64,000 nucleotides of DNA from Dehalococcoidia bacterium (lineage in GTDB: Bacteria; Chloroflexota; Dehalococcoidia; Lucifugimonadales; Australimonadaceae), in the NCBI GenBank assembly GCA_965220225.1, contig OZ244813.1, positions 1,955,385 to 2,019,384 of the forward strand, in the 5' to 3' direction. Both the position numbers and the translations under genes were made by a program. This document shows positions 220 to 39,244 of the stretch, piece after piece (the stretch's first letter is position 1; each line of letters begins with the position of its first letter). Under the pieces are notes generated by a model. The model saw only the letters and a list, made by a program, of their open reading frames with translations. It searched no databases and was not told the DNA's origin.

Positions 220-379
220 CGCTCTCTGCCACTGGGGCATTGCAAGCCCCAAAAGCCAGCGGCAGATACGCGCCCAAGGCTGGCATACAGCGCAATGACG
301 AAACCGCGACGTACAGGCTCTGTGGGATAGCCGTTCGCCGTCGGAAGCTCACCTTACGGATGTGGCGAGGGCAGGGTCA

Positions 380-640
380 ATGACACAGGCGTGCGCGTAA
401 CGGTACAAAGCTGTCCTCAGCGGGAGCTAGCAGACCATACTGCATCGTCTTGGTGGTGACGACCTGCTCTCCAAGCCCGTTGCGTGCGTCCATCGTGCGA
501 GGTTGTGGGCGATGACCTAGACGGCGAGCCATGCGGCGTTGGCGGCGAAGCGCCCGGATGGGAGGTGGTTGAGCCCGACCGCCGTACTTGAGGTGGCGGA
601 TGGCGTTCTCGATCTCGGCGTGACGGCGGTGTGATACGGT
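380..640 (-). pseudogene. IS1380-family transposase, C-terminal remnant only, with in-frame stop and frameshifts
   Basis: Minus-strand translation gives HAEIENAIRHLKYG, VGLNHLPSGRFAANAAWLAV-stop-VIAHNLARWTHATGL and GEQVVTTKT spread over different frames. These are blocks I recall as the conserved C-terminus of IS1380-type DDE transposases. The N-terminal ~350 aa is absent. Confidence 0.6.
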
Positions 641-653
641 ATCCTCGCTGCCC

Positions 654-3173: not shown

Positions 3174-3230
3174 CCCGCCTGTGGAATTAGCGGAGTTGGG
3201 CTCTGCTGGGCATCCTCATCGGGTTCGCCT

Positions 3231-3515
3231 TTGGAGAAGTGCCTTGGAGCCTTCATCGGGTACTACTGCATCCTCCCCTCGGGTGAGGAGCCCGCCGCCG
3301 GCTTCCGGTGCCTGAGCCTCCCCTGGGAGCACAGCGACGAGGGCGGCGAGCTGACCATCGCAGCGGGCGAGGACGGCAGGACCATCCACATCTGGATAGA
3401 CCGGGACGCCAGGATCCCCTTCGGCAACTCCCTGCTCTTCGTCGATCTCACCGGCGTGGAGGGGGCGAAGGAGATTACCGACGACTATGCGCAGGGCCGC
3501 GTCACCGACGACTAG
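3231..3515 (+). CDS. Hypothetical small acidic protein
   Basis: 94-aa ORF with protein-like composition. No recognisable motif and no clear RBS. Confidence 0.3.
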   Translation: MEKCLGAFIGYYCILPSGEEPAAGFRCLSLPWEHSDEGGELTIAAGEDGRTIHIWIDRDARIPFGNSLLFVDLTGVEGAKEITDDYAQGRVTDD

Positions 3516-3968
3516 CCGGAGACAACGCTGGGCCGCCGTGTGACGGCGGTTGAAGCCGAGGCATGGAATAGCGATGTAGAAGGAGCGACAGGCGGCCCGA
3601 CGGCTGCCGGTCGTTCCCTACCGAGGACCTAACCCCGGAGCCTCCATGCGCACGGGGCACGGCAGGAGGTGTATCCTGTTTAGTATGAAGGGAGTGGGGC
3701 CATGAAGGGCCACCTGGTCATAGAATACCGAGGCCATCGACCGGGGCTGAACGGGCAGTACGCTGGTGAACATCAACATCGACGATGCAGAGCTGACAAG
3801 GCATCAGGCGAATACGATTCCCCTGCACGGGGACGCCAGAGCAACCATCGAGGCCCTCCTGCCCTTACTCGTGGAAGCAGGGGCCGGAGAGCGGTCGTCG
3901 CCCGTCGAGACGGTGGAGCGCCGCCCGCAGAGCCTCCCTACCGGGTGCACGAATGCGCCTTCGGAGCT

Positions 3969-4859
3969 ATGAATTCCGTACAACCAGAGAGGCAGAACAT
4001 GTGGAAGCAACACTTGATGGCGGTTCTGGTTGTCCTAGCTTCGTTATTCTCACTTCTGGCTTGCTCGGACGACGACGCTTCTGCGACCGTGTCTCCCACA
4101 GCATCTTCCAGTCCCACGGGTTACCCTCCGAGCGACCCCTCAGCAGCAACGCCTATTTCAACACCTCGGGCAACTCCCACTCGTCCGCCTAGTGCAACCC
4201 CGACGGCGACCGCCGCAGCTACCGCAACGCCCACCGCTACTTCGATCGCAGTAGGACAGGACTCGAGCCGCGCCCAGGCTATAGCGCCGCTCAAGGTGGA
4301 TGACCTCCAGGCATTCCTGTCCCAGCTATCTCCTGTAGAACAGGCTTGCCTCAATGACAATGACATAGGCCACCGTGAGCTTATGCAGATGACAGGGCTC
4401 TCTCCCGGCGGTTCTCCTCAGACCACCGCGACCATCATCAACTGCCTGCAAGACGAAACCATCCTGAGGCTGTTCCTGACGTCGCTTGTCGGACTGACTG
4501 AGCCGTTCAGCCCGGTGACCTCCATGTGCATCGAGGAGGGGCTCGTGCTCCTAGACCTTCGTCAGCTGTTGGCGCCTGCCGAAACGAGAGACGCCCCAGT
4601 CAATTCCCTGGCACTGGGGATGGTTGCGCTGAACGTCTCCGTTGTCTGTATGGACGACGACGAGTGGGACATCTATGCTTCAAGGCTTGGTATGCAGCCC
4701 AGGGACAGGGAGGGTGCGGCCTGCCTCTTCGAGGAGTTGGGCGGGCCAGCGAAGGTGGTAGAGGCCATGCAGGAAGCCAGCCTGGGCGAGGTGCCGGAAG
4801 AACTGGCCGAGGCGTTCGAAACATGCATCACGTTACCGCCGCTACGCCCACTTCATTGA
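3969..4859 (+). CDS. Hypothetical lipoprotein with Ser/Thr/Pro-rich linker
   Basis: Internal ATG at 3969 (or 3999) precedes MWKQHLMAVLVVLASLFSLLACSDD (signal plus lipobox). The upstream part of the 385-aa ORF is Arg/Gly-rich and unlikely to be coding. Confidence 0.7.
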   Translation: MNSVQPERQNMWKQHLMAVLVVLASLFSLLACSDDDASATVSPTASSSPTGYPPSDPSAATPISTPRATPTRPPSATPTATAAATATPTATSIAVGQDSSRAQAIAPLKVDDLQAFLSQLSPVEQACLNDNDIGHRELMQMTGLSPGGSPQTTATIINCLQDETILRLFLTSLVGLTEPFSPVTSMCIEEGLVLLDLRQLLAPAETRDAPVNSLALGMVALNVSVVCMDDDEWDIYASRLGMQPRDREGAACLFEELGGPAKVVEAMQEASLGEVPEELAEAFETCITLPPLRPLH

Positions 4860-5087
4860 CGTGGGCCACGCCGGTTCTTCCGTGTAGCCATCTGGAAGCA
4901 GACCACAACGAGGACGACGAGCAAGACCGGTATGACGATGTAAGAGATGATGCCGATAAGTGTGGTTACAACTTCGGACATTCCTAACCTCTGGCAGCCG
5001 CGTGGCTGATCTGCGCTGGAACGTGAACGCCGCTTGCTTCATGTTGCAGACGGTACAGGCGTGGGAGTCGCCAGACCCGTCAAGGTG

Positions 5088-6227
5088 TCACAGGCCAATG
5101 GCATAGAGCCGCCCGTCGCCGCAGGCTGCGTACATCACGTGCGCGTCCACCACCAGACGCCGCACAGGGGCGTAGCAAACGGGGCCGTAGTCGTCCAGCG
5201 TATCTCCTGATGCCGCGTCAAACGCGAAGACGATGCCGTCGGACGACCCTGCGTAGACCACGCCGTCTGAGACGACCGGAGGGGACGACAAATGTGCTCT
5301 GGGGTACCACCAGACCGCAAAGCCCGTCTGCGGGTCCAGCGCAGTAAGGCTTATGGGATAGCGGTCATTGCCTTTGGCATACATCGTCCCACCTGCTACT
5401 ACCACATCCGGCTCCAGACCATGCTTGGTGAACTCCCACAGCCCTTCGCCCGAGGACGGGTCGATGGCTTCGACCAGCACGTCTCCTTCGGAACCCAGCA
5501 CTTCGCCCACCGCATACAACGTGCCGTCCGCCAACGTTATGGTCGTGGGGGTTCCGGTCGTGCCGGACAGCCAACGCTCCCTTCCGGTGGCCGCGTCCAG
5601 AGCGACGACGGCGGCAGCACCTTCCAGCGCGTACACGGTGCCGCCGTCCACGATGGGCGTGTCCCATACCAACGGAAAGCCGTAAGTGCTTTGCCAGATG
5701 ACGTTGCCTGTTTCCACATCGAAGGCGGTGATGGGAGCGGAGTAGCCAGCGGCCACCACGGTCCCGCCAGACACCACCGGTTGAAAGGACACGGTTCCGT
5801 CTGTTGGCACTCGCCACTGCACGGAGCCGTCCGCGCTGTCGATGGCGACCAGGAACGTGCTGCCTTTGAGAGACGACCCCACGTAGACGATGCCGTCGTG
5901 CTCCGTTAGCGGGCTGTGGGTGGCGGGTGATTCTCCGTACTGCCAGAGCTGTTCACCCGTGACCGTGTCAATGGCGTGCACGTAGTGGCCCGCTGACGCG
6001 TACAGCATTCTGCCGCTTACCACCGGCGCATACGGCTCTACGCCCGTGTCGTACTGCCAGATCACTGCAGGGTGCAGCCCATCGGATGCCGTGGGCGTCG
6101 GCATGGGCGTCGCCGTTGCTGTTGGCATAGGCGGCATGGGCGTAGGGCTGGGTGTTGGCGTCGGCTCTGAGCAGGCGGCCAGCGCGAACGCTAGGAACGC
6201 CAGGAGCAGGACACGGGCTATGCGCAT
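5088..6227 (-). CDS. PQQ-like / BamB-like beta-propeller repeat lipoprotein
   Basis: Start at MRIARVLLLAFLAFALAACSEPTPTP (lipobox). Repeated Y(A/V)xxxxGxhxAhDxxTGxxxW units are typical of PQQ-type propeller blades. Confidence 0.8.
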   Translation of the reverse strand: MRIARVLLLAFLAFALAACSEPTPTPSPTPMPPMPTATATPMPTPTASDGLHPAVIWQYDTGVEPYAPVVSGRMLYASAGHYVHAIDTVTGEQLWQYGESPATHSPLTEHDGIVYVGSSLKGSTFLVAIDSADGSVQWRVPTDGTVSFQPVVSGGTVVAAGYSAPITAFDVETGNVIWQSTYGFPLVWDTPIVDGGTVYALEGAAAVVALDAATGRERWLSGTTGTPTTITLADGTLYAVGEVLGSEGDVLVEAIDPSSGEGLWEFTKHGLEPDVVVAGGTMYAKGNDRYPISLTALDPQTGFAVWWYPRAHLSSPPVVSDGVVYAGSSDGIVFAFDAASGDTLDDYGPVCYAPVRRLVVDAHVMYAACGDGRLYAIGL

Positions 6228-6343
6228 CTGGTGCCTCCGGCAACAGCGTACCATGCCGCCGCCGTGCACCCTGCCTTGCGGATGCGGCCCTGCTGGTGTT
6301 AGCGTTCCGCCCTTCATCCGACGTTTCATCCGGGGAGGAAGAC

Positions 6344-6610
6344 GTGTACGGCAGCATCGGCGATGTCGAGTACAGCCAGGAGACGTTGGGGCTTGGCAGC
6401 AGGCTTGCCTTGGAGGATGTCAGGCTGTGTCTGCGGGAGTGCACCACTTTGGACGCTCTCAGGGAATGGCTGTTGACACGGAGGAGCGAGACGAAGATGT
6501 CATGGCTGAGCACCGTCCCCCATGCGCTTGTCCCATCGGTGCTGGAAGTGCGTGACCTCTACCTGGGGCAGTTGCTGGATGCGCTCTCCGCACCGCAGGA
6601 GCAGTGGTAG
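6344..6610 (+). CDS. Hypothetical small protein (GTG start)
   Basis: GGAGGA lies 5 nt upstream of the GTG at 6344. The 88-aa product VYGSIGDVEYSQETLG... has ordinary composition. Divergent from the propeller gene. Confidence 0.35.
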   Translation: MYGSIGDVEYSQETLGLGSRLALEDVRLCLRECTTLDALREWLLTRRSETKMSWLSTVPHALVPSVLEVRDLYLGQLLDALSAPQEQW

Positions 6611-6980
6611 GCGGCTCCGTTGGGATGGGCAGGGCATACCGCACCCGCACGTCGTAAATCATCGTCGTCATCAGCAGGGAGGGGGATGCGAGCAACCGTA
6701 GAATCATCTGCTGTCCCCCTAGTTGCTCCCATCGTTCAACTTGTCCTGCAGGTCGATTCCATGGATGACAGTGTTCCCTATCCCTCATCCAGACAACGTG
6801 GCCGACACGTTCACCAAGTGCCTCCTGTGGGCGGGATTCAGTCCCCTCCGTGCCCAACGAATCGGCACGATAGCATATGGTGTTTGATGGAGCGTCTCTG
6901 CTTGACCGTGTGACCGTTAGGCTGGTACACCACCATCCGTTCTGTCTGGCGCAAGGCCAGTCGATAGAGAGGAGAACGCC

Positions 6981-9183: not shown

Positions 9184-9999
9184 CTACCCTTCGGACATTG
9201 CCTCGGTATCAGACCCCGGGATTCGATCCACCGCCTCCGGGGTGGCGTAGGCCGGGGTCACCGTGCCGAGGTCCATGTCCAGGTAGAGGCCCATGAAGGG
9301 GCAGGAGCCCGCCGCCATGCGGCGGACCACCTGTAGCACCAGTGATGCCATCATCTGGTTGATGGTGGGGTCCTGGTCGGTGAGGTCGAGGGCGGCAGCG
9401 CAGTCCACGTCCGGCGGCGTGGTCGACACGGCCGTCAACAGGTCGGGGCGCTGCAGCGTGGGCGCTGGCAGCAGCCGGCAGGTCTCGTCAACGAAGGCGG
9501 GCTCGTCCCAATCCTCCAGGTCGGCCACGTTGCCTATCAGCACCTGCCCCCAGTTGGTGTCGTTGCCCGCGTCGATGAGCCACCGGCCCCGGCCGTTCGG
9601 CAGGCTCTCGGCCATCGCCCTTCGTGCGGCCGCGTTGTCAGCACAGCCGATGATCAGGCAGTCGCCGTAGGTGGGCAGGCCGGGGTAGCGGTGCCCGTAG
9701 GCGTGGGAGCCGGACTCCCGGAACGGGTAGACTGAGTAGCCGATCGGACGCCGGTAGGCCCGAGCGAGCCGGTCCGCCAGAGCCTTGCTCTTGAACTGTC
9801 CCACGTCACCGGGGTGAAAATTCTGGCGCAGCAGGTTGTGGGGCTCGACCCGGTCGTGGTCGACCAGGACGATGGTGGCCTCCCGCCCCTGGAAGAGGCG
9901 GCAGAGGCCCTCGGCGACGAAGCCGCCGGTCCCGCCGCAGCCGACCACGGTGATCCACGGTCGTTCGAGCAGGAATGCGTTGTCCAGGTAGTAGGGCAT
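9184..9999 (-). CDS. ThiF/E1-like adenylyltransferase, PRTRC-type
   Basis: Rossmann motif VVGCGGTGGFVAEGL, LVDHDRVEPHNLLRQ, and GCADN. Gene order follows a JAB protein, as in PRTRC cassettes. Confidence 0.85.
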   Translation of the reverse strand: MPYYLDNAFLLERPWITVVGCGGTGGFVAEGLCRLFQGREATIVLVDHDRVEPHNLLRQNFHPGDVGQFKSKALADRLARAYRRPIGYSVYPFRESGSHAYGHRYPGLPTYGDCLIIGCADNAAARRAMAESLPNGRGRWLIDAGNDTNWGQVLIGNVADLEDWDEPAFVDETCRLLPAPTLQRPDLLTAVSTTPPDVDCAAALDLTDQDPTINQMMASLVLQVVRRMAAGSCPFMGLYLDMDLGTVTPAYATPEAVDRIPGSDTEAMSEG

Positions 10000-10005
10000 G
10001 CTCGG

Positions 10006-10677
10006 TTACCTCCCTGTTGTTCGAATGATGTCCAGCAGAGATTCCGGCTCCTCGCCGCTCAACCGGACGTCCGGGACCGGGCCGTCGAAGACCTGCGACC
10101 ACTCCACCGGAGCGAAGTGGCCGTAGACGCCGACCCGGAGACGGAGCTCGGGTCGGGCGGAGTGAAGGCGTCCCGCGACGCCGTAGATGCGGAAGCCCTG
10201 CTCGTCCCGGTCGTCGGTGGCCGAGAAGAAGGCGGAGAGGCTTCCGTGCGAGTGGAACTCGGCTACCACCCCGCTGGGGGGCTGGTAGATGAGGGACACC
10301 CGCGATCCGGCCTGCGGAGGGACCACGGGCCGGTAGGCGTGACCGTCCCAGCGGACGGCGAAGAACCGCTCCGTGTCCGGTGCGTCCTGGAACCAGCGCA
10401 GGCCCGCCTCGAGGATGCGGGACGGGATGCGGCCGTGGGGCAGCATCACCTTCTCGCTCACGGGTGCGAGCCCGCGAACGACGCAGGGGGCGATGAGCAC
10501 CCGCGCTGTCAGGTGGGCGCTCGCGGACTGGACGTACACGCCGCCCAAGCCCAGCACGTAGTCGTAGCCGATCCCCTGGACTCCGGCGAGCCCGGCGGGG
10601 TGGTTGACGAGGTGGCCCACCGGACTCGGCGGGGCGTCAGCGGTAGCCGCGTCTCCCTTCGGAGACCGCCATGACAT
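10006..10677 (-). CDS. JAB/MPN-domain metalloprotease, PRTRC protein A-like
   Basis: JAMM motif EFHSHGSLSAFFSATDDRDE. ATG at 10677 overlaps the upstream gene end by 41 nt; a later start is possible. Confidence 0.8.
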   Translation of the reverse strand: MSWRSPKGDAATADAPPSPVGHLVNHPAGLAGVQGIGYDYVLGLGGVYVQSASAHLTARVLIAPCVVRGLAPVSEKVMLPHGRIPSRILEAGLRWFQDAPDTERFFAVRWDGHAYRPVVPPQAGSRVSLIYQPPSGVVAEFHSHGSLSAFFSATDDRDEQGFRIYGVAGRLHSARPELRLRVGVYGHFAPVEWSQVFDGPVPDVRLSGEEPESLLDIIRTTGR

Positions 10678-11341
10678 GGGCCACCGTACACTGGGGAACC
10701 AGGTCCTCCATCGGGTACTCGGTTGTTCCATCGAGCTCCTCCCATAGGGTTTGCAGGTTGTCGGGGTGCTTCTTCGAGCGCTCATGGCTGTCGCCGGTGA
10801 GCGAGAAGAAGGACTGGAAGAACGATTCCGGTATCAGCCCGACCTCGTCGGGGTACCGGTGGCTGCCCGGACACGTCCTTCCGTCGCGGAAAACGTTGAA
10901 GGCCGGCATCCGGTAGAGCTGCTGCTCGGGATCGGACGGCCGCTCCGTTGCGGCGTAGACCCAGGGGGCGCGGCCCGGCGAGCAGACGAAGAGCAGTCCC
11001 GGCATCGGGATCTTCAGCCGGGCGGGAGGCTTGAACGCCTCCCGTTGCAGGGCGACCGGCCACACCTGCGGCGGCCGCCAGAGGCCGACCACCTGCCCGG
11101 TCTCGCCCTGGTTCCACCAGAGGGCGTCCGCCGGCAGCAGCCCGGAAGAGAACCCCAGGTGCTGGGTGAGCGCGCTCGCGATCCCGTCCGCCGAGACGGT
11201 CCTGACCCAGGCCGAGCCGGTCTCGAAGCAGCGCAGAAGCAGTGTCTCCTCGTAGACCTCCAGCTGCATCTTCAGGTCGTCTCTGGGCGCATCGTTCACG
11301 CCCGGCAGGGACCACCCGGTGACATCGGTGTCAACACTCAT
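10637..11341 (-). CDS. PRTRC protein B-like (position and size); possible E2-like component
   Basis: Start at MSVDTDVTGW (ATG 11341). Conserved-looking PMPGLLFVCSPG and RMPAFNVF. Assignment rests mainly on position between the F-position gene and the JAB gene. Confidence 0.55.
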   Translation of the reverse strand: MSVDTDVTGWSLPGVNDAPRDDLKMQLEVYEETLLLRCFETGSAWVRTVSADGIASALTQHLGFSSGLLPADALWWNQGETGQVVGLWRPPQVWPVALQREAFKPPARLKIPMPGLLFVCSPGRAPWVYAATERPSDPEQQLYRMPAFNVFRDGRTCPGSHRYPDEVGLIPESFFQSFFSLTGDSHERSKKHPDNLQTLWEELDGTTEYPMEDLVPQCTVAHVMAVSEGRRGYR

Positions 11342-12171
11342 GTTCCTTTGCCTCCTTTTCCTTCTTGAGGGAGCCGTCCCAGGACGAACTCCAGCATCGC
11401 GGTGAAGCGGGCGGGGAGGTCCTGCTCCAGCCAGTCGGTCAACCTGCCCACCGCGTCCATGAGGGCCTCGGCCTGCCACCACACCCCGGTGGCCTCTGCG
11501 ATCAGGTCGTCGTCCCAGGGGTCGGAGAAGCCGTTGTACTCCCCGTCGTCATAGCTGGCGTCGAGGAAGAAGTTGCCGGTCTCGGCCCAGATCCAGTTGC
11601 CTGCCTGCGCCGCCCCCTCGAACGGCGTTCCCTGCAACGCCGCGGTGAGGACGTCGAGGGGTATGCCGTCGCTGGGGATGCGTTCGAGGGTCTGTCGCGG
11701 GATGTGCTCGGCTGCGGCCTCCAGCCACGCCACCCGTATCCCGTCCGGCACCACGTAGCAGGCCTCGGGAGGTCTGGCCAGCAGCGCCAGGGACGAGAGC
11801 CCCTCGCGGTAGCGGTCCCACATCTCGTGGACGGCGTCGTAGCCGAAGCCGAACAGGTCGAAGGGGATGCCTCTGCGCAGCCAGGTGAAGGGAGGATCGT
11901 CCCCCTCGTCCCAGTAGAGGTCGAGGTATGCCCCGTAGAGGGGGAAGTGCCGCTCCTGGAAGAGCCGGGCGAAGCGCTCCACCCTCTCACGGACGTCGGG
12001 GGCCGCCAGCAACGCCTCTCCCTCATCGGGGAAGAGACGGTGCACCAGCCCCGCGAACCAGGCGTAGTCGTCGGCGTAGCCGATCAGCGTCACCAGCTCC
12101 CGCAGCGACGGCGGACGCCGCAGGAGCAGTGTCGCGAGCCCGCTCAGCCGAGCTGGGGCAGCAGCTTCCAT
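11338..12171 (-). CDS. Hypothetical protein in the PRTRC protein F position
   Basis: 277-aa ORF, translationally coupled (4-nt overlap) to the next gene. No motif recognised. Confidence 0.5.
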   Translation of the reverse strand: MEAAAPARLSGLATLLLRRPPSLRELVTLIGYADDYAWFAGLVHRLFPDEGEALLAAPDVRERVERFARLFQERHFPLYGAYLDLYWDEGDDPPFTWLRRGIPFDLFGFGYDAVHEMWDRYREGLSSLALLARPPEACYVVPDGIRVAWLEAAAEHIPRQTLERIPSDGIPLDVLTAALQGTPFEGAAQAGNWIWAETGNFFLDASYDDGEYNGFSDPWDDDLIAEATGVWWQAEALMDAVGRLTDWLEQDLPARFTAMLEFVLGRLPQEGKGGKGT

Positions 12172-12670: not shown

Positions 12671-14968
12671 TCATGCGGCCTTGCGCCCCGCGCCGACCGG
12701 CTCTACATCGCGCTCCCGCTCCATGCCGAGCGCCCACTCGAACATGGAGAGGCTCGCGGGCTGGGGTTTGCGGCTCCGGCTCTTCGGCCTCGCCGGCCCC
12801 TCGGCCATGAACTCCGCCCAGGAGAACAGCGTCTGCCCTGACTCCGGGGACCCGTCGATGTGGCCGTTGTCGAGCACCGGCTCGATGCCGGAGGCCGTGC
12901 CGTCTACCGCAACCGTCTCCGGCTCGGTCTCCACGGCCTGCCAGCCGTCGTCGACCAGGTACTCTTCGGCCTCGGTCTCGGCGTCCCGCGCTGCCGCGAA
13001 GACCGCCTCCACCGTCTCCGCCTCATCCTCGTCGCCGTTCACGATCTTCCGCGCCAGCGCGAGCATGAGGTCGTCTCCGTCGTCGCCGTAGGCGGCCAGG
13101 CCGTCCTCCGGCAGTTCGCCCTCCACCGCCAGCGAAGACTGGAGTTTCTTCGCCACCAGCTTCAGGGCATCGGCCTGCAGGCTGTTCCTGTAGGCCATGA
13201 ACACCACCCGCACCGGCCGCGTCTGGCCGATGCGCCACGAGCGGCGGGACGCCTGCCGCATCGTGTAGACCGAGTAGTCCGTCTCGTACCAGCAGATGGT
13301 CGGGAAATCGATCAGGTCGAGCCCGGTCTGCACCAGCCTGGGATGGCAGATGAGGACGTCGAGTCCCTTCTCCACCTGCTCGGCGACCCACGCCTCGCGC
13401 CGGTCGGGCGCGACGGCATCGGCCTTCATCACCGCCACCCGGAACCCGTGCCGGGTGAGCATGCTCTCCATCCGGCCGGTGATGTCCCGCGTGCCGGTGT
13501 GCGTCGCGTACACCAGCACCCGGCGTCCCTCCAGGCGCTCCGCGGCCACGAGGTCGACGAGCGCCTGCTCCTTCGGGTAGGTCCGCTCCTCGGAGAGCGG
13601 AGGCACCCCCACGATGGGGAAGCCCGTCGCGGGGTCGAAGACGGTCTCGCCCCGTGTGCAGCCGTCCGGGTAGGCGAGCAGTGTCTGCAGGTACGTGGCC
13701 AGCAGCCGCTTGGAGCCGGTGGCCAGTGCCGCACCCAGCGCACTCTTCAGCGCCCCGTAGAGCATGTCGTAGGCCGAGCGCTGCGATAGGCCCGTGTGGT
13801 CCTGTTCGGAGTCCATGCGGGAGAGCAGGACCCGCTCCTCGTAGGGAGGCAGCCCGGACGCCACGTCCGAGAGCCGCAGGAAGATGGAGTTCCCGATGAG
13901 GTGGAAGAGTGCCGAGGGAGCGAGGCCGGGACGCTCACGCACCACCCTGCGGTAGCGGCGCCTCCGGCTGTTGCGCCCGTCCTCGACGGAGGAGTCGTCG
14001 TTCTTGTACACCGTCTCCTCGGTGAAGCCGTAGCGCTGGATCCACCGTCCCTCCTCGTTGTGCCGGAACTCGGTGCGGATCTCCGGGGAGAACCGGTAGA
14101 GGAGGTGGAAGAGGGTGCTGGCATAGCCGCCCATGAGCGTGCCCGAGAGGGTGAGCGAGCGGCCGCACGACTCCGCGAGCACGCCGGCGGCGATGCCCTG
14201 GGCGGAGCCGCGCGCCTTGAACTCATGCACCTCGTCGCCGATGAAGAGGTCGAAGAACCCCCGCATCCGGTGCTTGACGTAGTCTGCCAGGGGATAGCGG
14301 CGGGGGCCGGTGTTGTCGGCCTGCCACAACGGGGAGTTGCAGACGTCGCAGACGTGCCGCTTGCGGTTGAGGTCCGCCGTGGACAGAGGCACGCCCTCCC
14401 TGTCGAGCACCTGCGCGGCGCAGACGGGGCAGCAGGGGATGCGGAAGGGAGCGCCCGTCTCCTCGTCCCGCACGAGCCTGCCACCCGCCACGGCCCACCG
14501 CTCATTGACGGCGGGCTGCCAACGGTAGGCGAGCTTGGCCCGCTCGCGGGACATGACCGCGAAGAGGGGAGCGGCGCCGGGGAAGAGGCGGAGGCGCTCG
14601 AGGTCGGTGATGGAGGTGACGATGGCGGCGCGGGCGCCGGGGATGGTCTCCTCCACCTCGCGCTTCCACTTCCGCACGAGGTGCGGCGGGCAGAGCACCA
14701 GGACGCGCCTGAAGCCCGCCGCGTGGGCGGCGCTCGTTGCGATGAACGTCTTTCCGGTTCCCATCTCGCCGACGACGGTCGTGCCCTGGTGGGCCTGCAG
14801 CGAGAGGGCCGCGCCGCGTATGGCGTCGGCCTGTGCGCCGAGCGGCCTGCGCAGGAGCGCGGGGAGTGGAACGGCCTGCTCGGACGGCCGGTAGAGGGGC
14901 GGGTACGACTCCACCACCCGCTGGGCGATGGAGTCCCTGAACGTGTCGATGAAGGTCCCGAGGTTCAT
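12671..14968 (-). CDS. SNF2/DEAD-like superfamily-2 helicase with inserted zinc ribbon
   Basis: Walker A VVGEMGTGKTF and DEAH-like GDEVHEFK. C-terminal helicase motifs (YATHTGTRD, QASRRSWRIGQ). CCPVC...CDVC insertion. Start at MNLGTFIDTF (ATG 14968). Confidence 0.85.
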   Translation of the reverse strand: MNLGTFIDTFRDSIAQRVVESYPPLYRPSEQAVPLPALLRRPLGAQADAIRGAALSLQAHQGTTVVGEMGTGKTFIATSAAHAAGFRRVLVLCPPHLVRKWKREVEETIPGARAAIVTSITDLERLRLFPGAAPLFAVMSRERAKLAYRWQPAVNERWAVAGGRLVRDEETGAPFRIPCCPVCAAQVLDREGVPLSTADLNRKRHVCDVCNSPLWQADNTGPRRYPLADYVKHRMRGFFDLFIGDEVHEFKARGSAQGIAAGVLAESCGRSLTLSGTLMGGYASTLFHLLYRFSPEIRTEFRHNEEGRWIQRYGFTEETVYKNDDSSVEDGRNSRRRRYRRVVRERPGLAPSALFHLIGNSIFLRLSDVASGLPPYEERVLLSRMDSEQDHTGLSQRSAYDMLYGALKSALGAALATGSKRLLATYLQTLLAYPDGCTRGETVFDPATGFPIVGVPPLSEERTYPKEQALVDLVAAERLEGRRVLVYATHTGTRDITGRMESMLTRHGFRVAVMKADAVAPDRREAWVAEQVEKGLDVLICHPRLVQTGLDLIDFPTICWYETDYSVYTMRQASRRSWRIGQTRPVRVVFMAYRNSLQADALKLVAKKLQSSLAVEGELPEDGLAAYGDDGDDLMLALARKIVNGDEDEAETVEAVFAAARDAETEAEEYLVDDGWQAVETEPETVAVDGTASGIEPVLDNGHIDGSPESGQTLFSWAEFMAEGPARPKSRSRKPQPASLSMFEWALGMERERDVEPVGAGRKAA

Positions 14969-15297
14969 GGTCTGCTCCTTTCGTGGGGAGAGCCACGACC
15001 TCGGGGCCCGCGTCCCTGCTCCAACCTCCTCGCGGGGGCTTGAAGACAGGGCACACCCCTCCCGCCCGTACGGGAGGGGGTTAGGGAGTGCCGGGCGCAG
15101 GCGCCCTTTGGAGTTACCGTGGAGACACTCCCCGTTGTTCGCGTGCGCTGTCCCAGGCACGCACCGGTCGAGATGGGCGGGGCTCGCCCGACCGGTGGTG
15201 GGAGAGTCCCGTCAGGCGGCTCCGCAGGAGCCGTCCAAGAAGAAGACGGCCCGCTCCCGGTGGGAAGCGGACCCCCATTGTTGAGGCCTGTCTGCCG

Positions 15298-27058: not shown

Positions 27059-28810
27059 ATGCAAGCACACGAAGTACCCACCCATGTGCAGGCCGAGGAC
27101 AAGGTCCTGCTCTGGTTCACCTTCCCGCAGATCGTGGCGATCACGGCGGTGGGGGCGCTCGCCTATGGCATCTACCACTACCTGCCCTTCGGACCGCCGG
27201 AGTTCCGCATCGGCCTCGCGGTCATCTTCGCGCTGACCGGCCTCGCGGCGGTGGTGGGGAGGGTCGGAGGACGTCGGCTCCCCGCCGTGGCCGCCGACCT
27301 GCTGCGCTATCGGCTGGCCGGCCGGTGCTATGCCGGCGTCCCGGCCGAGATCGTGCGCAGCGAGCCGCCTGCGCCGCTCGACGACAGCCCCGGCCTGCTG
27401 CAGCACATAACCGAGAAGACACAGCGGCGGCTCCGCCGGATGCGCAGGGGGATGAAGGCCCGGCGGGTCCGCAGGAGCCGCGAGCGGCGGAACGGCCGCC
27501 GGGGGCCGGGGCCGCAGCGCTGGCTCCCCAGCCGCCGCAAACCCAAGGACCGGGGGAACGGCAGCGCGGGCCATACGGCCATGCGGCGCGTCTGCCTGCT
27601 CGGAGCCATAGTCCTGCTCGCGGTGACCGCGGTGGCCGCGTCCGGCCCGCCGACGCCGACACCCGAGCCGACGCCTGGACCGGGCACACCCTACCCGCAG
27701 ACCAGCCCCGACCGCTGGCGCAACGAGATCCACTACGACCATGTGGAACCCGTTCCGGGCAGACGGCTCTACGTCGAGCGGCTCTCCGTCTTCGAGGACA
27801 AGGCGACCGTCACACTGCGGGCCGCAGCCGACATCGAGCTGCAGGTGCAGGCGTTCGGCGGCCCCGAGGGCAGGGAACTCCACTTCTACGGCAGTGCGGT
27901 GGTCGATGCGGGGGAGACCATCTACTACACCCTTCCGCTCTCCGGCGACGCGCCGTCCTTCACCTTCGCCTGGGTCGACGAGCGCGGCCAGGCCGGGGGC
28001 GTCAGCATCGACAGCGAGCAGATCCCGCACCCGTTGCCGGTCGCAGAGGGCGAGTTGTGCGACATCAGCGTGACTGAAGTCCGCTGGAGCCCCGGCGCGC
28101 TCACCGGGAGGGTGGAAGCCGGCGAGTGCATACAGTCCGTCGAGCACCCCATCGACCTCGTCGTGGTCAACGGCGAGGAACACATCGCGGGTCCCATGGT
28201 CATGAAGACCCGCGTGACGGGCGTCTACGGCACCGCTACGGTCTCCTCCGGTGAGGAGAGCACGACCGTCCGGCTCGATCCGCCCGGCAGCGCGCTTTTC
28301 CGGCTGCCCGTCCCGGCGGGGAAGCGCCTGCACGAGTTGGGCATCGAGGCCGCCCTCGAAGCCGGCCTGCGGGGGAACGCGCCGCCGCTGGTGACGCTCA
28401 CCCTGATCCCGGAGCGGGAGGAGACCCGCCTGGTGCCGGTCCAGGTGCTGCGGCCCGGCACCAGCAAGACCGTGCGCGAGACGGTCACCGTCCAGAACAA
28501 GGACGGCACCACGTCCTCCCACGAGATCTCCGCGAGGCTCACCGTCCCCGCCGAGATCATCACCGTCGTGCCCTCCGTGCTGATCACGTATGAGGAGTAC
28601 ATCGCGGCGACGGTGAACCCCCGGGGGAGCGCCTACGGCACCAAGGAAGAGACCGTCGAACTGTCGTTCGCCGTCGGCGCGGACGCCCCCTACGCGCCAT
28701 TCGTTCCGCCCCCACGGGAGGAGGAGCCCCCGCCTCCCGTCCAGACGCCGGTCACCGAGGACGAGGGGAGGGGGCTGTTCGGCATCCTTGGATGGGAGTG
28801 GCCGTGGTGA
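27059..28810 (+). CDS. PrgI/VirB3-like N-terminal membrane domain joined to a large extracytoplasmic region
   Basis: N-terminus VPTHVQAEDKVLLWFTFPQIVAITAVGALAY... is a PrgI-like pattern. It is followed by an Arg-rich linker, a third hydrophobic segment (MRRVCLLGAIVLLAVTAVAASG) and ~380 aa of beta-rich sequence. Confidence 0.55.
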   Translation: MQAHEVPTHVQAEDKVLLWFTFPQIVAITAVGALAYGIYHYLPFGPPEFRIGLAVIFALTGLAAVVGRVGGRRLPAVAADLLRYRLAGRCYAGVPAEIVRSEPPAPLDDSPGLLQHITEKTQRRLRRMRRGMKARRVRRSRERRNGRRGPGPQRWLPSRRKPKDRGNGSAGHTAMRRVCLLGAIVLLAVTAVAASGPPTPTPEPTPGPGTPYPQTSPDRWRNEIHYDHVEPVPGRRLYVERLSVFEDKATVTLRAAADIELQVQAFGGPEGRELHFYGSAVVDAGETIYYTLPLSGDAPSFTFAWVDERGQAGGVSIDSEQIPHPLPVAEGELCDISVTEVRWSPGALTGRVEAGECIQSVEHPIDLVVVNGEEHIAGPMVMKTRVTGVYGTATVSSGEESTTVRLDPPGSALFRLPVPAGKRLHELGIEAALEAGLRGNAPPLVTLTLIPEREETRLVPVQVLRPGTSKTVRETVTVQNKDGTTSSHEISARLTVPAEIITVVPSVLITYEEYIAATVNPRGSAYGTKEETVELSFAVGADAPYAPFVPPPREEEPPPPVQTPVTEDEGRGLFGILGWEWPW

Positions 28811-36719: not shown

Positions 36720-37028
36720 GTGATGGAGACCGGCGTGCGGCGTTTCGCCGATGAGCACGGTGACGAGGTCAGGCTCACCGACGAGCGGCTCCGGCACATC
36801 CTGCGAAGGCACCCCGAGATGGCCTTCCAGTTGCACCGGTTCGCCGAGACCCTGGCCAGCCCCGACGCGGTGATCCCATCGAGGACCGGCGCGGGGGTCC
36901 ATCTCTACTACCGTCTCTACCCGGACCAACAGGGCAGGAACCGCTACCTCTGCCTGGTGGTGAAGAGAGGAACGGACGACTCCTTCGTCCTCACCGGCTA
37001 CCTGAGTCGAGGCATCAGAGGAGGGTGA
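36720..37028 (+). CDS. Putative toxin, DUF4258 / BECR-fold RNase-like
   Basis: LTDERLRHILRRHPEM... followed by a beta-rich core ending VLTGY. Partnered with a DUF2283-like gene, which is a known toxin-antitoxin pairing. Confidence 0.45.
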   Translation: MMETGVRRFADEHGDEVRLTDERLRHILRRHPEMAFQLHRFAETLASPDAVIPSRTGAGVHLYYRLYPDQQGRNRYLCLVVKRGTDDSFVLTGYLSRGIRGG

Positions 37029-37447
37029 TCATGACGAACAGAAAGGTGTTCATCTCGTTCGACCATGAGGGAGACATGCTTGAGGTGCTGTGGGGGCATC
37101 GCGAGGGGTACTTCACTCCCACTGACGACGAGCGCATCCTCAAGCGCCTCGACGACGACGGCGAGGTGATGGGGTTCCTCATCCACGAGATGAGCACACT
37201 CAGGGAGTCCAACTCCGTCGAGTTCGAGCTGGTGTCCGAGGTGCCCACTGATGATGTCGCCAACGTCACTGTCCGAGAAGCGGCTAACCGGCTGGGCGTG
37301 TCAGAACGCAGGATCCGCAAACTGGTTCGGGAGGGCAGGGTGCGCGGAGCGACCAAAAGCGGAGCCGATTGGCTGATTCCAACACCGGTCGAGTTGATTC
37401 CGGGAAAGCGGGGTCCCGTGGGGGTTGCGGGGCGGATCGACTCGTAA
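37025..37447 (+). CDS. DUF2283-like domain fused to a MerR/excisionase-type HTH (putative antitoxin)
   Basis: ISFDHEGDMLEVLWG...DDDGEVMGFLI matches the DUF2283 pattern. C-terminal VTVREAANRLGVSERRIRKLVREGRV is an HTH. Start overlaps the upstream stop (GTGA). Confidence 0.6.
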   Translation: MIMTNRKVFISFDHEGDMLEVLWGHREGYFTPTDDERILKRLDDDGEVMGFLIHEMSTLRESNSVEFELVSEVPTDDVANVTVREAANRLGVSERRIRKLVREGRVRGATKSGADWLIPTPVELIPGKRGPVGVAGRIDS

Positions 37448-37576
37448 AGGGGAACCAAGGGCTACTGTACTGCGAACTCTTCGGTTGGAGGTGGAACTGT
37501 AATCCAAGGAGTATGAGGCTTCGGCCTGCCCCAACTACTACGTCCGCCTAAACACCCATCGCGGCTTGGCCGGAGG

Positions 37577-37800
37577 TTGGACTGCGCATCAAGCCTGCCC
37601 AGGTTGCCGCGAACTGGTCCAACGCCGTCTACAGGTTTTCGACGATCTTCTTCCGGCAGCGCCTTCGGCTCCGGGAGTGACGCGGCGTCCTCGACTCTCT
37701 CGTCGCGCAACCAGGTGATGTCCAGGTTGACCTTGTCGCGCTTGATGAGGTCGCCGTAGGAGAACGAGTGGAAGTGCCCGTCTCCTGCCGCTCGTAGCGG
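37577..37800 (-). pseudogene. hsdM: 3'-terminal remnant of a type I restriction-modification methylase gene (hsdM) with stop and frameshift
   Basis: Minus strand reads FHSFSYGDLIKRDKVNLDITWLRDERVEDAASLPEPKALPEE, then after a frameshift IVENL-TAG-TALDQFAA. This is the conserved HsdM C-terminus; the ~450 aa N-terminal part is missing. Confidence 0.65.
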
Positions 37801-37828
37801 TTGGGGGGGTTGTAGCACGCCACGAATA

Positions 37829-38714
37829 GTTGTGGATAGCGGGCAGGCGTCATTCAGTTACAATCGACAGCCCGGATCACTACGACCACCTAAGTTGTGG
37901 ATAGCGGGCAGGCGTCATTCAGTTACACTTTCGCGGTTGGCGAGGTGCCGGACCGTGGGGTTGTGGACAGCGGGTAGGCGTCATTCAGTTACACTATACG
38001 ACGCCTCCCCCGGAGACGGAGCAAGTTGTGGACAGCGGGTAGGCGTCATTCAGTTACACTCAGACGAGCCATCGAGACCGCCAGGAGCAAGTTGTGGACA
38101 GCGGGTAGGCGTCATTCAGTTACACTGCAGGCCTTTCGTACGATGGCCGCTCTTCCGTTGTGGACAGCGGGTAGGCGTCATTCAGTTACACTGTCGTGCA
38201 CAGGTTGGCTCTTCCAGTGCGGTTGTGGACAGCGGGTAGGCGTCATTCAGTTACACTACTGCGGTGAGGCCTGATATTCGGGTCTAGTTGTGGACAGCGG
38301 GTAGGCGTCATTCAGTTACACTAGGGCCGCACATGCACTGATAGCGAGACTGTTGTGGACAGCGGGTAGGCGTCATTCAGTTACACTTAGGCCGATCTGC
38401 GATCGGCTGAAACGGACGTTGTGGACAGCGGGTAGGCGTCATTCAGTTACACTTCGCCCCCGGCGGTCTCGATGGCTCGTCTGGTTGTGGACAGCGGGTA
38501 GGCGTCATTCAGTTACACTAGGGCCGTACATGTACTGACAGTGAGACGGTTGTGGACAGCGGGTAGGCGTCATTCAGTTACACTGACTATGCGGTCTATT
38601 CGTCCACCACCCTGTTGTGGACAGCGGGTAGGCGTCATTCAGTTACACTTACTCCTTCTTCTTCTCGCCCTCTTTGCGGTTGTGGACAGCGGGTAGGCGT
38701 CATTCAGTTACACT
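37829..38714. CRISPR. CRISPR array: 14 x 36-bp repeats and 13 spacers of 29-30 bp; no cas genes in the window
   Basis: Consensus GTTGTGGACAGCGGGTAGGCGTCATTCAGTTACACT. Repeat starts: 37829, 37894, 37960, 38025, 38091, 38157, 38222, 38287, 38352, 38418, 38484, 38549, 38614, 38679. The first two repeats carry 3 and 2 substitutions; the other 12 are identical. Confidence 0.97.
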
Positions 38715-38748
38715 AGCTGCGCAGCGCTCCCAGCGGGCCTGCCGAACG

Positions 38749-38776
38749 AGCCCCGGGTTCCCGGGGCTGTTCTTTT
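38749..38776 (+). terminator. Intrinsic terminator-like hairpin plus T-tract 35 bp after the last repeat
   Basis: AGCCCCGG-GTTC-CCGGGGCT (8-bp perfect stem) followed by GTTCTTTT on the plus strand. Confidence 0.55.
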
Positions 38777-39244
38777 GAAGGGGCGGAGGGGCCTCGAGAC
38801 ACCATTAGATTCTCTCCCCTGAGAAGTAGCAGCTATCTCGCGCTTGAGGCTAGCGCGCCAGCGCCGCGAACCAAGTGTCGACCATCGCTGGCAGAGGCCA
38901 TCGCGAGTTTGCTGCAATTGGCAGTGCTCGGCGCGATAGGAGATGTGGCAGCTGACACGCGGGATACAATCCAATCGGCTGGAGAGTTGAAGAACGGCAT
39001 CAAGACTGTTGCGGTCGCCGTAGTAATTCCCATGGTCGATCGTCGCCGCCAGAGGACAAGAGGTTTGCGTCGCTCAGTTGCGGATTGCGACCCGGTGGCT
39101 GTGCCATCCGCTGGGCTTCGAACGAACATGGCCAAGCTTCTTCCACAGGGCGAGCTGAGGACCAGTCGCGTACCGCTTGACCTACGAAAGCCTGTTCTTG
39201 CATGATGCAGGGTATGACCCAATACGACCTCAGGCAGGACAATC

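What the first reader, a model, noticed from the sequence alone, without database searches (positions are those of the whole stretch)
38061..38548. Two pairs of related spacers differ only at every third nucleotide; one pair is inverted with identical boundaries
Spacer 8 (38323-38351, AGGGCCGCACATGCACTGATAGCGAGACT) and spacer 11 (38520-38548, AGGGCCGTACATGTACTGACAGTGAGACG) are 24/29 identical. They differ at positions 8, 14, 20, 23 and 29, all in the same codon phase. All five changes are synonymous in one frame (GRTCTDSET) and also in one frame of the opposite strand. Spacer 10 (38454-38483) is the reverse complement of spacer 4 (38061-38090), with identical 30-nt boundaries. Those two differ at positions 2, 5 and 8, again period 3 and synonymous. 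So the array keeps spacers against two diverged alleles of two conserved protein-coding targets, as expected from an arms race with a family of related elements. Capture of exactly the same 30-nt window in both orientations is unusual for PAM-oriented adaptation.
Basis: seen in the sequence. Interest (0 to 1): 0.8.

Follow-up and report, generated by a model that had tools for sequence, protein, structure and literature searches.

The report
Orphan Cas9-type CRISPR array on ICE
A mobile conjugative element in a Dehalococcoidia bacterium carries a Cas9-type (II-C) CRISPR array with no cas genes. Four of its 13 spacers record repeat captures of the same two gene sites from diverged versions of an unknown invader, one of them inserted backwards, which is a neat but largely ordinary trace of a CRISPR arms race.

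Summary
The array lies at 37829-38714 (14 repeats of 36 nt, 13 spacers). Sp8 and sp11 match at 24/29 positions. Sp4 matches the reverse complement of sp10 at 27/30 with identical ends. All 8 differences fall in one codon phase (P≈5e-4).

The array is type II-C. Its oldest repeat is 36/36 identical to the repeat of a metagenomic cas9-cas1-cas2 locus (L135). The repeat carries a conserved -10-like 3' end and is predicted to pair with that locus's tracrRNA.

The window has no cas gene and no tracrRNA. The array is variable cargo in an ICE slot that holds other things in related ICEs.

Across 605 spacers of 31 related arrays, same-window, same-orientation diverged pairs recur (at least 5 more). 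The inverted pair is unique.

No target was found in any searchable collection. The target gene, the PAM and the cause of the inversion therefore remain unresolved. My preferred reading is an orientation slip at integration (about 40%). A mirror-image PAM is the main rival (about 30%).

The sp4/sp10 differences cluster in sp4's PAM-proximal seed, which fits escape followed by re-capture.

Verdict: a new member of a known kind, of moderate interest.

The parts
37829..38714 (+). Cas-less type II-C CRISPR array: 14 repeats of 36 nt and 13 spacers of 29-30 nt. The crRNA sense is the + strand.
   Evidence: parse the array. The oldest repeat is 36/36 identical to the L135 repeat next to cas9-cas1-cas2. 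Orientation follows from the tracrRNA geometry in L135.
37829..37929 (+). The two oldest, degenerate repeats (37829-37864 ...ACAAT with T9, C16; 37894-37929 ...ACACT with T9, C16) and spacer 1. This is the trailer end of the array.
   Evidence: A degenerate repeat also sits at the cas-distal end in L028, L012, L092, L083 and L123. The stepwise order of repeat mutations shows growth at the right end.
38061..38090 (+). Spacer 4 (allele A of target 2, the older capture). Its three differences from sp10 lie at positions 23, 26 and 29, in the PAM-proximal seed.
38454..38483 (+). Spacer 10: the same 30-nt window as spacer 4 but reverse-complemented (allele B, the younger capture). The differences fall at its positions 2, 5 and 8, the PAM-distal end.
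38323..38351 (+). Spacer 8 (allele A of target 1, the older capture).
38520..38548 (+). Spacer 11 (allele B of target 1, same orientation and ends as spacer 8). The 5 differences are all at third codon positions.
38715..38722 (+). Leader-proximal 8-mer AGCTGCGC beside the newest repeat. It resembles the 8-mer between array and cas2 in cas-linked relatives (ACCTGCGC, GCCTGCGC) and may be a remnant leader-anchoring sequence.
   Evidence: This is weak: 6-7 of 8 positions match and the rest of the flank is not homologous.
38749..38778 (+). Intrinsic-terminator-like hairpin plus T-run, 35 nt after the last repeat on the crRNA strand.
37462..37818 (-). Relic of a class I SAM-dependent DNA methyltransferase (HsdM-like C-terminus) abutting the trailer end of the array.
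   Evidence: tblastn (E = 2e-7). There was no Pfam hit.

Best explanation
The region is a type II-C (Cas9-type) CRISPR array without cas genes or tracrRNA. It is carried as cargo in the variable slot of an integrative conjugative element of a Dehalococcoidia (Chloroflexota) bacterium, between an HTH_17 gene and the RHH plus large serine recombinase genes.

How it likely works. Each repeat ends in a -10-like hexamer (TACACT), so crRNAs are probably started inside each spacer on the + strand. They would pair through the repeat with a tracrRNA and load into a Cas9 supplied in trans by the host or a recipient cell. New spacers were added at the right-hand end by a Cas9-Cas1-Cas2 machinery that measures about 30 bp from a PAM.

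The spacer pairs. Because the PAM fixes the window, independent captures from diverged relatives of the same invader give spacers with identical ends that differ only at synonymous third codon positions (sp8 then sp11; sp4 then sp10). For target 2, the younger allele differs from the older one only at the three wobble positions inside sp4's PAM-proximal seed. That would let it escape sp4. The same 30-bp prespacer was then captured again but, in my preferred reading, ligated into the array the wrong way round by the symmetric Cas1-Cas2 integrase (an orientation slip).

Shown here: the array anatomy, the type, the lack of cas genes, the cargo status, the polarity, and the period-3 statistics. 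Inferred: action in trans, repeat promoters, escape, and the cause of the inversion.

Sub-confidences: type II-C orphan array on an ICE about 0.9; pairs are alleles of coding targets about 0.85; orientation slip as the cause of the inversion about 0.4.
For: Type. The nearest repeats lie beside cas9 (TIGR01865, E = 1.6e-196), cas1_NMENI and cas2 with no csn2 or cas4. The array is antisense to the cas genes and 50-55 nt from the cas2 stop. The L135 repeat is 36/36 identical to the window's oldest repeat, and the L133 repeat is 35/36. An anti-repeat followed by hairpins and a terminator lies upstream of cas9. Cofolding the window's main repeat with the L135 tracrRNA candidate gives -93.2 kcal/mol, against -96.5 for L135's own repeat and -66 for a shuffled control. 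Repeat positions 31, 32, 34 and 36 (T-A-n-A-n-T) are invariant in 32 distinct family repeats. Repeat-embedded promoters are known for II-C (PMC5965381). A + strand terminator-like hairpin follows the array.

Orphan and cargo status. No Cas domain appears in any ORF of the ICE or near the array, and there is no anti-repeat in the window. Syntenic ICEs have an empty slot or other cargo there.

Polarity. Degenerate repeats sit at the cas-distal end in the window and in 5 relatives. The window's repeat mutations are nested from left to right. The II-C leader lies at the transcription-distal, cas-proximal end (bioRxiv 10.1101/2025.06.12.659244).

Coding alleles. 8 of 8 differences are in one phase, P = 4.7e-4, and 7 of 8 are transitions. 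Analogous pairs occur in L114, L131 and L129.

Slip. The ends and the length (30 nt) are identical, which follows automatically if one measured prespacer is inserted either way. Spacer length in this array otherwise varies between 29 and 30. An isolated type II integrase inserts pre-processed prespacers independently of the PAM. The array has lost all but about 8 nt of the native leader.
Against: No protospacer was found, so neither the PAM nor the coding nature of the targets was seen directly. A flipped spacer without a PAM on its new 3' side would be useless, yet it has been retained. Selection in nature favours functional spacers, which favours the mirror-PAM rival. The rate of orientation errors in II-C adaptation is unknown. 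There is one flipped pair against about 6 same-orientation pairs, so the numbers are small. No Cas9 of this family was seen on a 2,938,702-bp contig among the clusters I could inspect. Whether the present host can use the array is therefore unknown. Repeat promoters and the terminator are sequence predictions only.
Confidence: 0.45

Rival explanations
1. Mirror-image PAM. The target site carries the Cas9 PAM on both sides at the same distance (5'-rcPAM-N30-PAM-3'). The same 30-bp window is then a legitimate protospacer on either strand. Sp10 would be a correctly oriented, functional spacer against the opposite strand. Because its seed lies on the end that is identical in both alleles, it would cover both the old and the escape allele.
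For: Retention of sp10 in a natural array is easier to explain if it is functional. In sp10 the three allele differences sit at positions 2, 5 and 8, which are PAM-distal and partly upstream of the likely transcription start. Its seed matches both alleles. Short or GC-rich II-C PAMs would make double-sided sites not very rare in a roughly 61% GC target.
Against: It needs an exact coincidence of two PAM-measured windows, although spacer length in this array varies between 29 and 30. No other such pair occurs among 605 family spacers. The PAM is unknown and no target was recovered.
Confidence: 0.3
2. Guide-defined (primed) re-capture. Cas9 loaded with the sp4 crRNA binds the seed-mutated escape allele without cutting it. 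The bound complex marks exactly that protospacer for the integrase, which would explain the identical ends. Orientation control is lost because the normal PAM-end hand-off is bypassed.
For: Two of the 13 spacers re-sample exactly a site already held in the array. Priming-like clustering around a pre-existing II-C protospacer has been reported in Flavobacterium columnare (PMC8092290). The allele B differences lie exactly in the sp4 seed (P = 2/120 for clustering at one end).
Against: Known type II priming needs cleavage by a perfectly matching spacer and yields nearby sites, not the identical site. The sp8/sp11 pair kept its orientation. PAM-fixed windows already explain the identical ends. There is no direct evidence.
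Confidence: 0.1
3. Array-to-array copying. Sp10 was not taken from the invader. It came from an allele B spacer already sitting in another II-C array (for example the host's), excised or sampled at the repeat-spacer junctions and re-integrated in reverse. That trivially preserves the ends.
For: CRISPR loci are themselves acquisition hot spots in a II-C host. Exact spacer duplications occur within related arrays (L129_48/53/64, 73/75, 74/76; L060; L105; L114).
Against: Adaptation-independent duplications keep their orientation (PMC8860593). Every duplicate I saw in the family is in the same orientation. No donor array with this spacer was found among 631 other spacers.
Confidence: 0.05
4. Artefact or chance. 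The inverted spacer is an assembly error, or the similarities are coincidental.
For: None specific. The window comes from an assembly I cannot inspect at read level.
Against: 27/30 identity has a chance probability of about 2e-12. An inversion of exactly one spacer between direct repeats is not a typical misassembly. The three differences, all at wobble positions, show an independent origin rather than a mis-joined copy of sp4.
Confidence: 0.03

Closest known systems
Type II-C CRISPR-Cas loci (Neisseria meningitidis, Campylobacter jejuni type)
   Same: 36-nt unstructured repeat and spacers of about 30 nt. A -10-like hexamer at the repeat 3' end. In cas-linked relatives only cas9-cas1-cas2 are present, the array is antisense to the cas genes, and a tracrRNA lies beside cas9. 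The repeat is identical to that of a bona fide locus (PMC5965381).
   Different: There is no cas9, cas1, cas2 or tracrRNA in the ICE or the window. The native leader is reduced to about 8 similar bases. The host is a high-GC Dehalococcoidia lineage. The PAM is unknown.
Orphan or isolated CRISPR arrays moved by mobile elements (plasmid orphan arrays, NAR 2021 PMC9071438; Pseudomonas aeruginosa isolated type I-F CR3, PMC13142298)
   Same: A cas-less array on or moved by a conjugative element. It is presumed to use a resident Cas machinery in trans and to carry immune memory between cells. It continued to grow after separating from its parent locus: 12 identical derived repeats against 2 ancestral ones.
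   Different: This array is type II-C rather than type I or IV, so it also needs a compatible tracrRNA. It sits on an ICE with a serine recombinase rather than a plasmid or prophage. Function in trans was not tested.
In-trans adaptation of the type VI-B array by type II-C machinery in Flavobacterium columnare (PMC8092290)
   Same: An array lacking its own cas1-cas2 is filled by a II-C adaptation module. The same PAM-defined protospacers appear in the opposite guide orientation in one array relative to the other.
   Different: There the opposite orientation is systematic between two different arrays and serves an RNA-targeting effector. Here a single spacer is inverted within one II-C-type array.
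'Flipped' spacers in type I adaptation (for example the Cas4-dependent orientation control cited)
   Same: A correctly measured prespacer inserted in the reverse orientation, giving identical ends.
   Different: This is documented in type I systems by deep sequencing, usually when Cas4 or PAM-end processing is impaired. It is not documented for II-C. Here it is inferred from one natural pair.

Membership tests
Type II-C CRISPR array | Repeat belongs to a repeat family found next to cas9-cas1-cas2 with no csn2 or cas4 | tested here: met
   The L135 repeat is 36/36 identical to the window repeat at 37829-37864. L133 is 35/36, and L028 and L012 are 33/36 to the main repeat. All are flanked by Cas9 (TIGR01865), Cas1 (cas1_NMENI) and Cas2 only.
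Type II-C CRISPR array | 36-nt repeats separated by spacers of about 30 nt | tested here: met
   14 repeats of 36 nt and spacers of 29-30 nt. The family mode is 30 nt.
Type II-C CRISPR array | cas9, cas1 and cas2 adjacent to the array | tested here: not met
   No Cas domain in any ORF of the ICE or near the array with Pfam or PADLOC. It is therefore an orphan array of II-C type, not a complete II-C system.
Type II-C CRISPR array | tracrRNA with an anti-repeat complementary to the repeat | tested here: inconclusive
   No anti-repeat in the 64-kb window. Relatives have one upstream of cas9. The window repeat is predicted to pair with the L135 candidate almost as well as L135's own repeat does. 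Whether the host encodes one is unknown.
Type II-C CRISPR array | Promoter element embedded in each repeat, with crRNA transcribed towards the cas-proximal end | tested here: inconclusive
   T-A-n-A-n-T at repeat positions 31-36 is invariant in 32 family repeats, and a + strand terminator-like hairpin follows the array. The sigma-70 scan found no full -35/-10 promoter in the repeats. No RNA data are available.
Type II-C CRISPR array | Protospacers flanked by a 3' PAM | not testable with these tools
   No protospacer was recovered in phages, plasmids, IMG/VR, JGI metagenomes or fetched loci.
MGE-borne orphan (isolated) CRISPR array | Lies inside a mobile element and is absent from the same site in related elements | tested here: met
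   The array lies between the T4SS, relaxase and HTH genes and the large serine recombinase of an element with about 70% GC. L002-L006 share the flanking genes, but the slot is empty or holds other cargo.
MGE-borne orphan (isolated) CRISPR array | Uses a resident Cas machinery in trans for interference and adaptation | not testable with these tools
   Only indirect signs are available. 12 identical derived repeats imply continued spacer uptake after the repeat diverged, and pairing with a tracrRNA is predicted. No Cas9 cluster member was seen on a contig of the window's length.
Spacers derived from protein-coding targets (allelic pairs) | Differences between related spacers restricted to one codon phase and synonymous | tested here: met
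   8 of 8 differences in phase 2, P = 4.7e-4, synonymous in two frames.
Spacers derived from protein-coding targets (allelic pairs) | Protospacers map inside annotated or conserved ORFs | tested here: inconclusive
   Only chance hits were found (L001, L127, L128). Each fails at wobble positions or in ORF context.

The most novel reading that the evidence does not exclude
The inverted pair records a real property of II-C adaptation into a leader-poor, ICE-borne array. After an invader escaped sp4 through three synonymous seed mutations, the very same protospacer was re-captured, possibly marked by the mismatched sp4-Cas9 complex, and inserted in reverse. This moved the seed onto the invariant end, so that one spacer covers both alleles. 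That would mean guide-defined prespacer boundaries and relaxed, or even adaptive, orientation choice in a Cas9 system working in trans on a mobile array.
Probability: 0.1. Interest if true: 0.75.

Novelty: new member of a known kind. Interest (0 to 1): 0.4.

Why it matters
If the reading is right, an ICE in an uncultured, environmentally widespread Dehalococcoidia lineage ferries a ready-made Cas9 immune memory between cells that own the matching cas9 and tracrRNA. That extends the 'portable array' idea, shown so far for type I and IV systems, to tracrRNA-dependent type II-C.

The allelic spacer pairs are a natural record of invader diversification and of escape through synonymous seed mutations.

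The single inverted, same-window spacer is a rare natural data point on how orientation is set in II-C adaptation. That mechanism is explicitly described as undetermined. One pair with no recovered target proves nothing on its own, but it defines a clean experiment.

Tried and rejected
1. Target searches.
- The whole array against GenBank phages and PLSDB plasmids in blastn 'distant' mode gave only E≈3 chance hits.
- Codon-degenerate protospacer patterns for both pairs were run in IMG/VR and JGI metagenomes. They returned three hits (L001, L127, L128). All were rejected as chance because wobble positions, amino acids or ORF context do not fit.
- Exact 20-mers of sp7, sp12 and sp13 in IMG/VR gave nothing.
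- Spacers against the window itself gave no match with up to 7 mismatches, so there is no self-target, and no similar peptide in six frames.
- Spacers against related ICE segments and all fetched loci gave nothing.

2. Rfam found no CRISPR-DR family or any other RNA.

3. The idea that a cas-like effector hides in the ICE or in the equivalent slot of relatives was rejected. The 450-aa cargo protein of L005 and L006 has no Pfam or PADLOC hit.

4. A type VI-B (Cas13b) identity for the repeat was considered, because many GTTGTGGA... arrays end in ...ACAAC. It was rejected because the nearest and identical repeats sit beside cas9, and the family 3' end is TAnAnT rather than ACAAC.

5. The strict repeat pattern in GTDB genomes and two repeat halves in IMG/VR gave no hits. 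The window itself is in neither searchable DNA collection.

6. I tried to show that the window's genome encodes the cognate Cas9 by looking for a cluster member on a 2,938,702-bp contig. None was seen, which is inconclusive.

7. I tested whether the host is the same species as the Cas9-bearing L028 and L012 genomes. It is not: no MMPL homologue from those contigs appears among hits of 71% identity or more.

8. Homology of the array flanks to the native leader or trailer is limited to about 8 nt next to the last repeat.

9. TRF periods of 262 and 327 nt were considered as signs of segmental duplication of the array. They are explained by repeat identity alone, because no further spacer pairs are related.
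Full report
**1. The observation**

Window 37829-38714 (+) holds 14 copies of a 36-nt repeat, GTTGTGGACAGCGGGTAGGCGTCATTCAGTTACACT. They are separated by 13 spacers of 29-30 nt. The two left-most repeats are degenerate and the other twelve are identical.

- Sp8 and sp11 are 24/29 identical, with differences at positions 8, 14, 20, 23 and 29.
- Sp4 equals the reverse complement of sp10 at 27 of 30 positions, with zero offset and equal length. The differences are at sp4 positions 23, 26 and 29.
- No other spacer pair in the array is related, and no spacer matches elsewhere in the window with up to 7 mismatches.

Such identities have chance probabilities near 1e-9 and 2e-12. All eight differences falling in one codon phase has P = 4.7e-4. 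Seven of the eight are transitions.

The differences are synonymous both in frame +3 and in the antisense frame that shares the same third positions. The coding strand therefore cannot be deduced.

**2. What the array is**

Nothing in the window identifies it directly. Rfam gives no hit. There is no anti-repeat. No ORF of the element or the flanks has a Cas domain.

A periodic search for the repeat's first 8 bases in GTDB species representatives returned 120 arrays. The closest repeats, at 32-33 of 36 positions, are in Dehalococcoidia and Chloroflexota MAGs. There the array lies 50-55 nt from the stop of cas2 in a cas9-cas1-cas2 operon with no csn2 or cas4, and it is antisense to the cas genes. 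Cas9 matches TIGR01865 at E = 1.6e-196 and Cas1 matches cas1_NMENI.

Following Cas9 homologues into ENA assemblies gave closer matches.
- L133 has a repeat that is 35/36 identical to the window's oldest repeat.
- L135 (Cas9 P0143) has a repeat that is 36/36 identical to it.

In L028, L121, L074, L133 and L135 a 17-23-nt perfect anti-repeat was found outside the array. It lies just upstream of cas9 in L028, L133 and L135. In L135 it is followed by hairpins and a terminator-like stem with a T-run. This geometry fixes GTTGTGG as the 5' end of the repeat in the crRNA, so window spacers read 5'->3' on the + strand with the PAM-proximal end at their 3' end.

The window's derived repeat differs from the L135 repeat at positions 9, 16 and 35.
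- Position 9 is bulged in the predicted duplex.
- Position 16 (C->U) gives a G.U wobble.
- Position 35 is at the distal end of the duplex.

It cofolds with the L135 tracrRNA candidate at -93.2 kcal/mol. L135's own repeat gives -96.5 and a shuffled repeat gives -66.

Across 32 distinct repeats of the family, positions 31, 32, 34 and 36 (T-A-n-A-n-T) are invariant although the search did not constrain them. This matches the repeat-embedded promoters described for N. meningitidis and C. jejuni II-C arrays (PMC5965381). A terminator-like hairpin follows the last repeat on the + strand.

I therefore file the array as type II-C in kind, but as an orphan. The defining adjacent cas genes and tracrRNA are absent from the window.

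**3. Context**

The array sits in an element of about 70% GC, against 60-65% for the flanks. The element encodes the following:
- VirB4/TraG-like and coupling ATPases, TrbL and a Replic_Relax protein;
- a primase, SSB, Rad52 and RadC;
- a ThiF/JAB/E2 trio and a DUF6094 methyltransferase;
- a PBECR2/HTH_17 pair;
- at its right end, an RHH gene and a large serine recombinase.

This is an ICE.

Elements with 90% or more identical recombinases share the flanking genes. L002 and L006 also share the host insertion site. Between the HTH_17 gene and the RHH gene they carry nothing (L003/L004), small genes (L002) or a 450-aa unknown protein (L005/L006). The array is thus variable cargo.

Its left flank is a relic of an HsdM-like methyltransferase. 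Its right flank keeps only about 8 bases resembling the native leader-proximal sequence.

The host is Chloroflexota/Dehalococcoidia, judging by the names attached to close MMPL homologues. It is not the same species as the Cas9-bearing L028 and L012 genomes. I saw no Cas9 cluster member on a contig of the window's length. Whether the present host can use the array is therefore open.

**4. Polarity**

Degenerate repeats lie at the cas-distal end in five cas-linked relatives, and at the left end in the window.

The window's repeat mutations are nested from left to right:
- repeat 1: ...ACAAT with T9 and C16;
- repeat 2: ...ACACT with T9 and C16;
- repeats 3-14: ...ACACT with C9 and T16.

This is what copying of the leader-proximal repeat at the right end would produce. 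It agrees with the II-C arrangement, in which the leader is at the transcription-distal, cas-proximal end.

It follows that sp4 predates sp10 and sp8 predates sp11. At least 11 spacers entered after the repeat had diverged from the L135 form.

**5. How ordinary are the pairs?**

I compared 605 spacers of 31 arrays of this repeat family all against all, in both orientations.

Diverged pairs with the same window and the same orientation recur:
- W8/11;
- L114_7/19 (differences at 7, 10, 13, 25, all in one phase);
- L131_54/70 (7 of 9 differences in one phase);
- L129_80/81, L129_50/61 and L129_12/15.

There are also slipped pairs (L034_16/19, L129_29/39, L129_3/31) and exact duplicates.

Repeated capture of the same PAM-defined site from variant alleles is therefore a normal feature of these arrays and needs no special explanation. 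An inverted pair with identical ends occurs only once, in the window (sp4/sp10).

**6. The inverted pair**

The three differences are the three wobble positions nearest the 3' end of sp4 (23, 26, 29), out of ten wobble positions. Clustering of this kind at either end has P = 2/120.

In a Cas9 guide these positions are in the PAM-proximal seed. The younger allele would therefore escape sp4 while keeping the protein unchanged.

In sp10 the same differences fall at positions 2, 5 and 8. That is the PAM-distal end, and it is partly upstream of the transcription start expected by analogy with N. meningitidis (my inference from established II-C biology). If sp10 had a PAM, it would match both alleles in its seed.

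Four mechanisms can give identical ends in both orientations:
- (a) one measured prespacer inserted the wrong way round by the twofold-symmetric Cas1-Cas2;
- (b) a PAM on both sides at mirror distance;
- (c) guide-defined re-capture;
- (d) copying from another array.

The literature I read says that orientation control in II-C is not understood, and that isolated type II integrase inserts pre-processed prespacers independently of the PAM. It also says that adaptation-independent spacer duplications keep their orientation, and that II-C shows priming-like clustering around an existing protospacer.

I prefer (a) at about 40%. Identical ends and identical length follow automatically from it, whereas (b) needs an exact coincidence in an array whose spacer length varies between 29 and 30. 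The array has also lost its native leader. Mechanism (b), at about 30%, is favoured by the retention of sp10 in nature. Without the protospacer neither can be tested.

**7. Targets**

No protospacer was found in any of the following:
- GenBank phages and PLSDB plasmids;
- IMG/VR;
- JGI metagenomes;
- the window, the related ICE segments or any fetched locus.

The three pattern hits are chance.

Mean spacer GC is 61%. The wobble GC of the four spacers is about 40-70%. That is unlike this ICE family, whose GC3 is about 0.8-0.9. Together with the absence of similar peptides in the ICE, this argues that the targets are other elements. The finding's central biological claim, conserved coding targets in a family of related elements, remains a well-supported inference rather than a demonstration.

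**8. Comparison and verdict**

The closest known things are:
- II-C arrays with repeat-embedded promoters;
- orphan or isolated arrays mobilised by plasmids and other mobile elements and used in trans (PMC9071438; PMC13142298);
- in-trans filling of a cas1-less array by II-C machinery with reversed guide orientation (PMC8092290).

The window adds a II-C example on an ICE of an uncultured Dehalococcoidia lineage. I did not find a described II-C precedent for this in the papers searched. It also adds a single natural inverted same-window spacer.

I rate it a new member of a known kind, interest 0.4. The period-3 pairs are real but ordinary. The inversion is genuinely unusual but unresolved.

Noticed in passing
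window 37462-37818 (-): A relic of a class I SAM-dependent DNA methyltransferase (HsdM-like C-terminal tail) abuts the trailer end of the array. The reading frame appears interrupted after the conserved LPEP motif (read by eye, not tested). This suggests the array was captured together with a scrap of a defence island.
   Followed up: partly
window 37448-39244, versus L002 7399-9785, L003 4457-4544, L005 7231-9785, L006 8185-9785: The slot between the HTH_17 gene and the RHH plus serine recombinase genes is a cargo hot spot in this ICE family. It is empty, or holds several small genes, a 450-aa protein with no Pfam or PADLOC hit, or the CRISPR array.
   Followed up: partly
L135 (ENA ERZ23496164 scaffold_4373), about 606-743 (-): A candidate tracrRNA is transcribed divergently from cas9. 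Its anti-repeat is perfect for repeat positions 14-36, then pairs with a bulge to positions 1-13, and is followed by hairpins and a terminator-like stem with a T-run.
   Followed up: partly
window 28691-28720 (ICE gene 27059-28810): Spacer 20 of the chromosomal II-C array in L131 matches this ICE gene at 22 of 30 positions, 17 of them contiguous. This is marginal after multiple testing, but it hints that chromosomal arrays of this family may target relatives of this ICE.
   Followed up: partly
window 9184-11548 (-): ThiF, Prok-JAB and Prok-E2 (ubiquitin-like conjugation) genes lie in a row on the ICE, next to a DUF2958 gene and upstream of an 846-aa SNF2/ResIII helicase at 12671-15211.
   Followed up: no
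window 36720-37447 (+): An overlapping gene pair encodes a PBECR2 (barnase/EndoU/RelE-like nuclease) protein and an HTH_17 protein directly upstream of the array. It looks like a toxin-antitoxin or regulator pair and is conserved in all related ICEs.
   Followed up: no
L129 (reverse strand 4-6692) and L131 (reverse strand 1016-6691): These are very long II-C arrays (at least 101 and 85 spacers). L129 has exact internal spacer duplications, including blocks (L129_73/75 and 74/76; L129_48/53/64), and L131 has one (L131_1/6). Gene callers placed spurious ORFs inside them.
   Followed up: no
L135 reverse strand 5-568: This array has the repeat identical to the window's oldest repeat, but its spacer lengths are loose (28-32 nt) compared with 29-30 nt in the window.
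   Followed up: no
loci L007-L126: Many unrelated phyla share 36-nt repeats that start GTTGTGGATTG. Some end in ...TTACACT or ...TACAAT (II-C-like) and others in ...ACAAC (resembling Cas13b repeats, from memory). The shared 5' end across types recalls the II-C/VI-B repeat similarity discussed for Flavobacterium.
   Followed up: no
window 624-3173 (+): An 849-aa protein with C-terminal leucine-rich repeats lies in the lower-GC left part of the window, outside the ICE.
   Followed up: no
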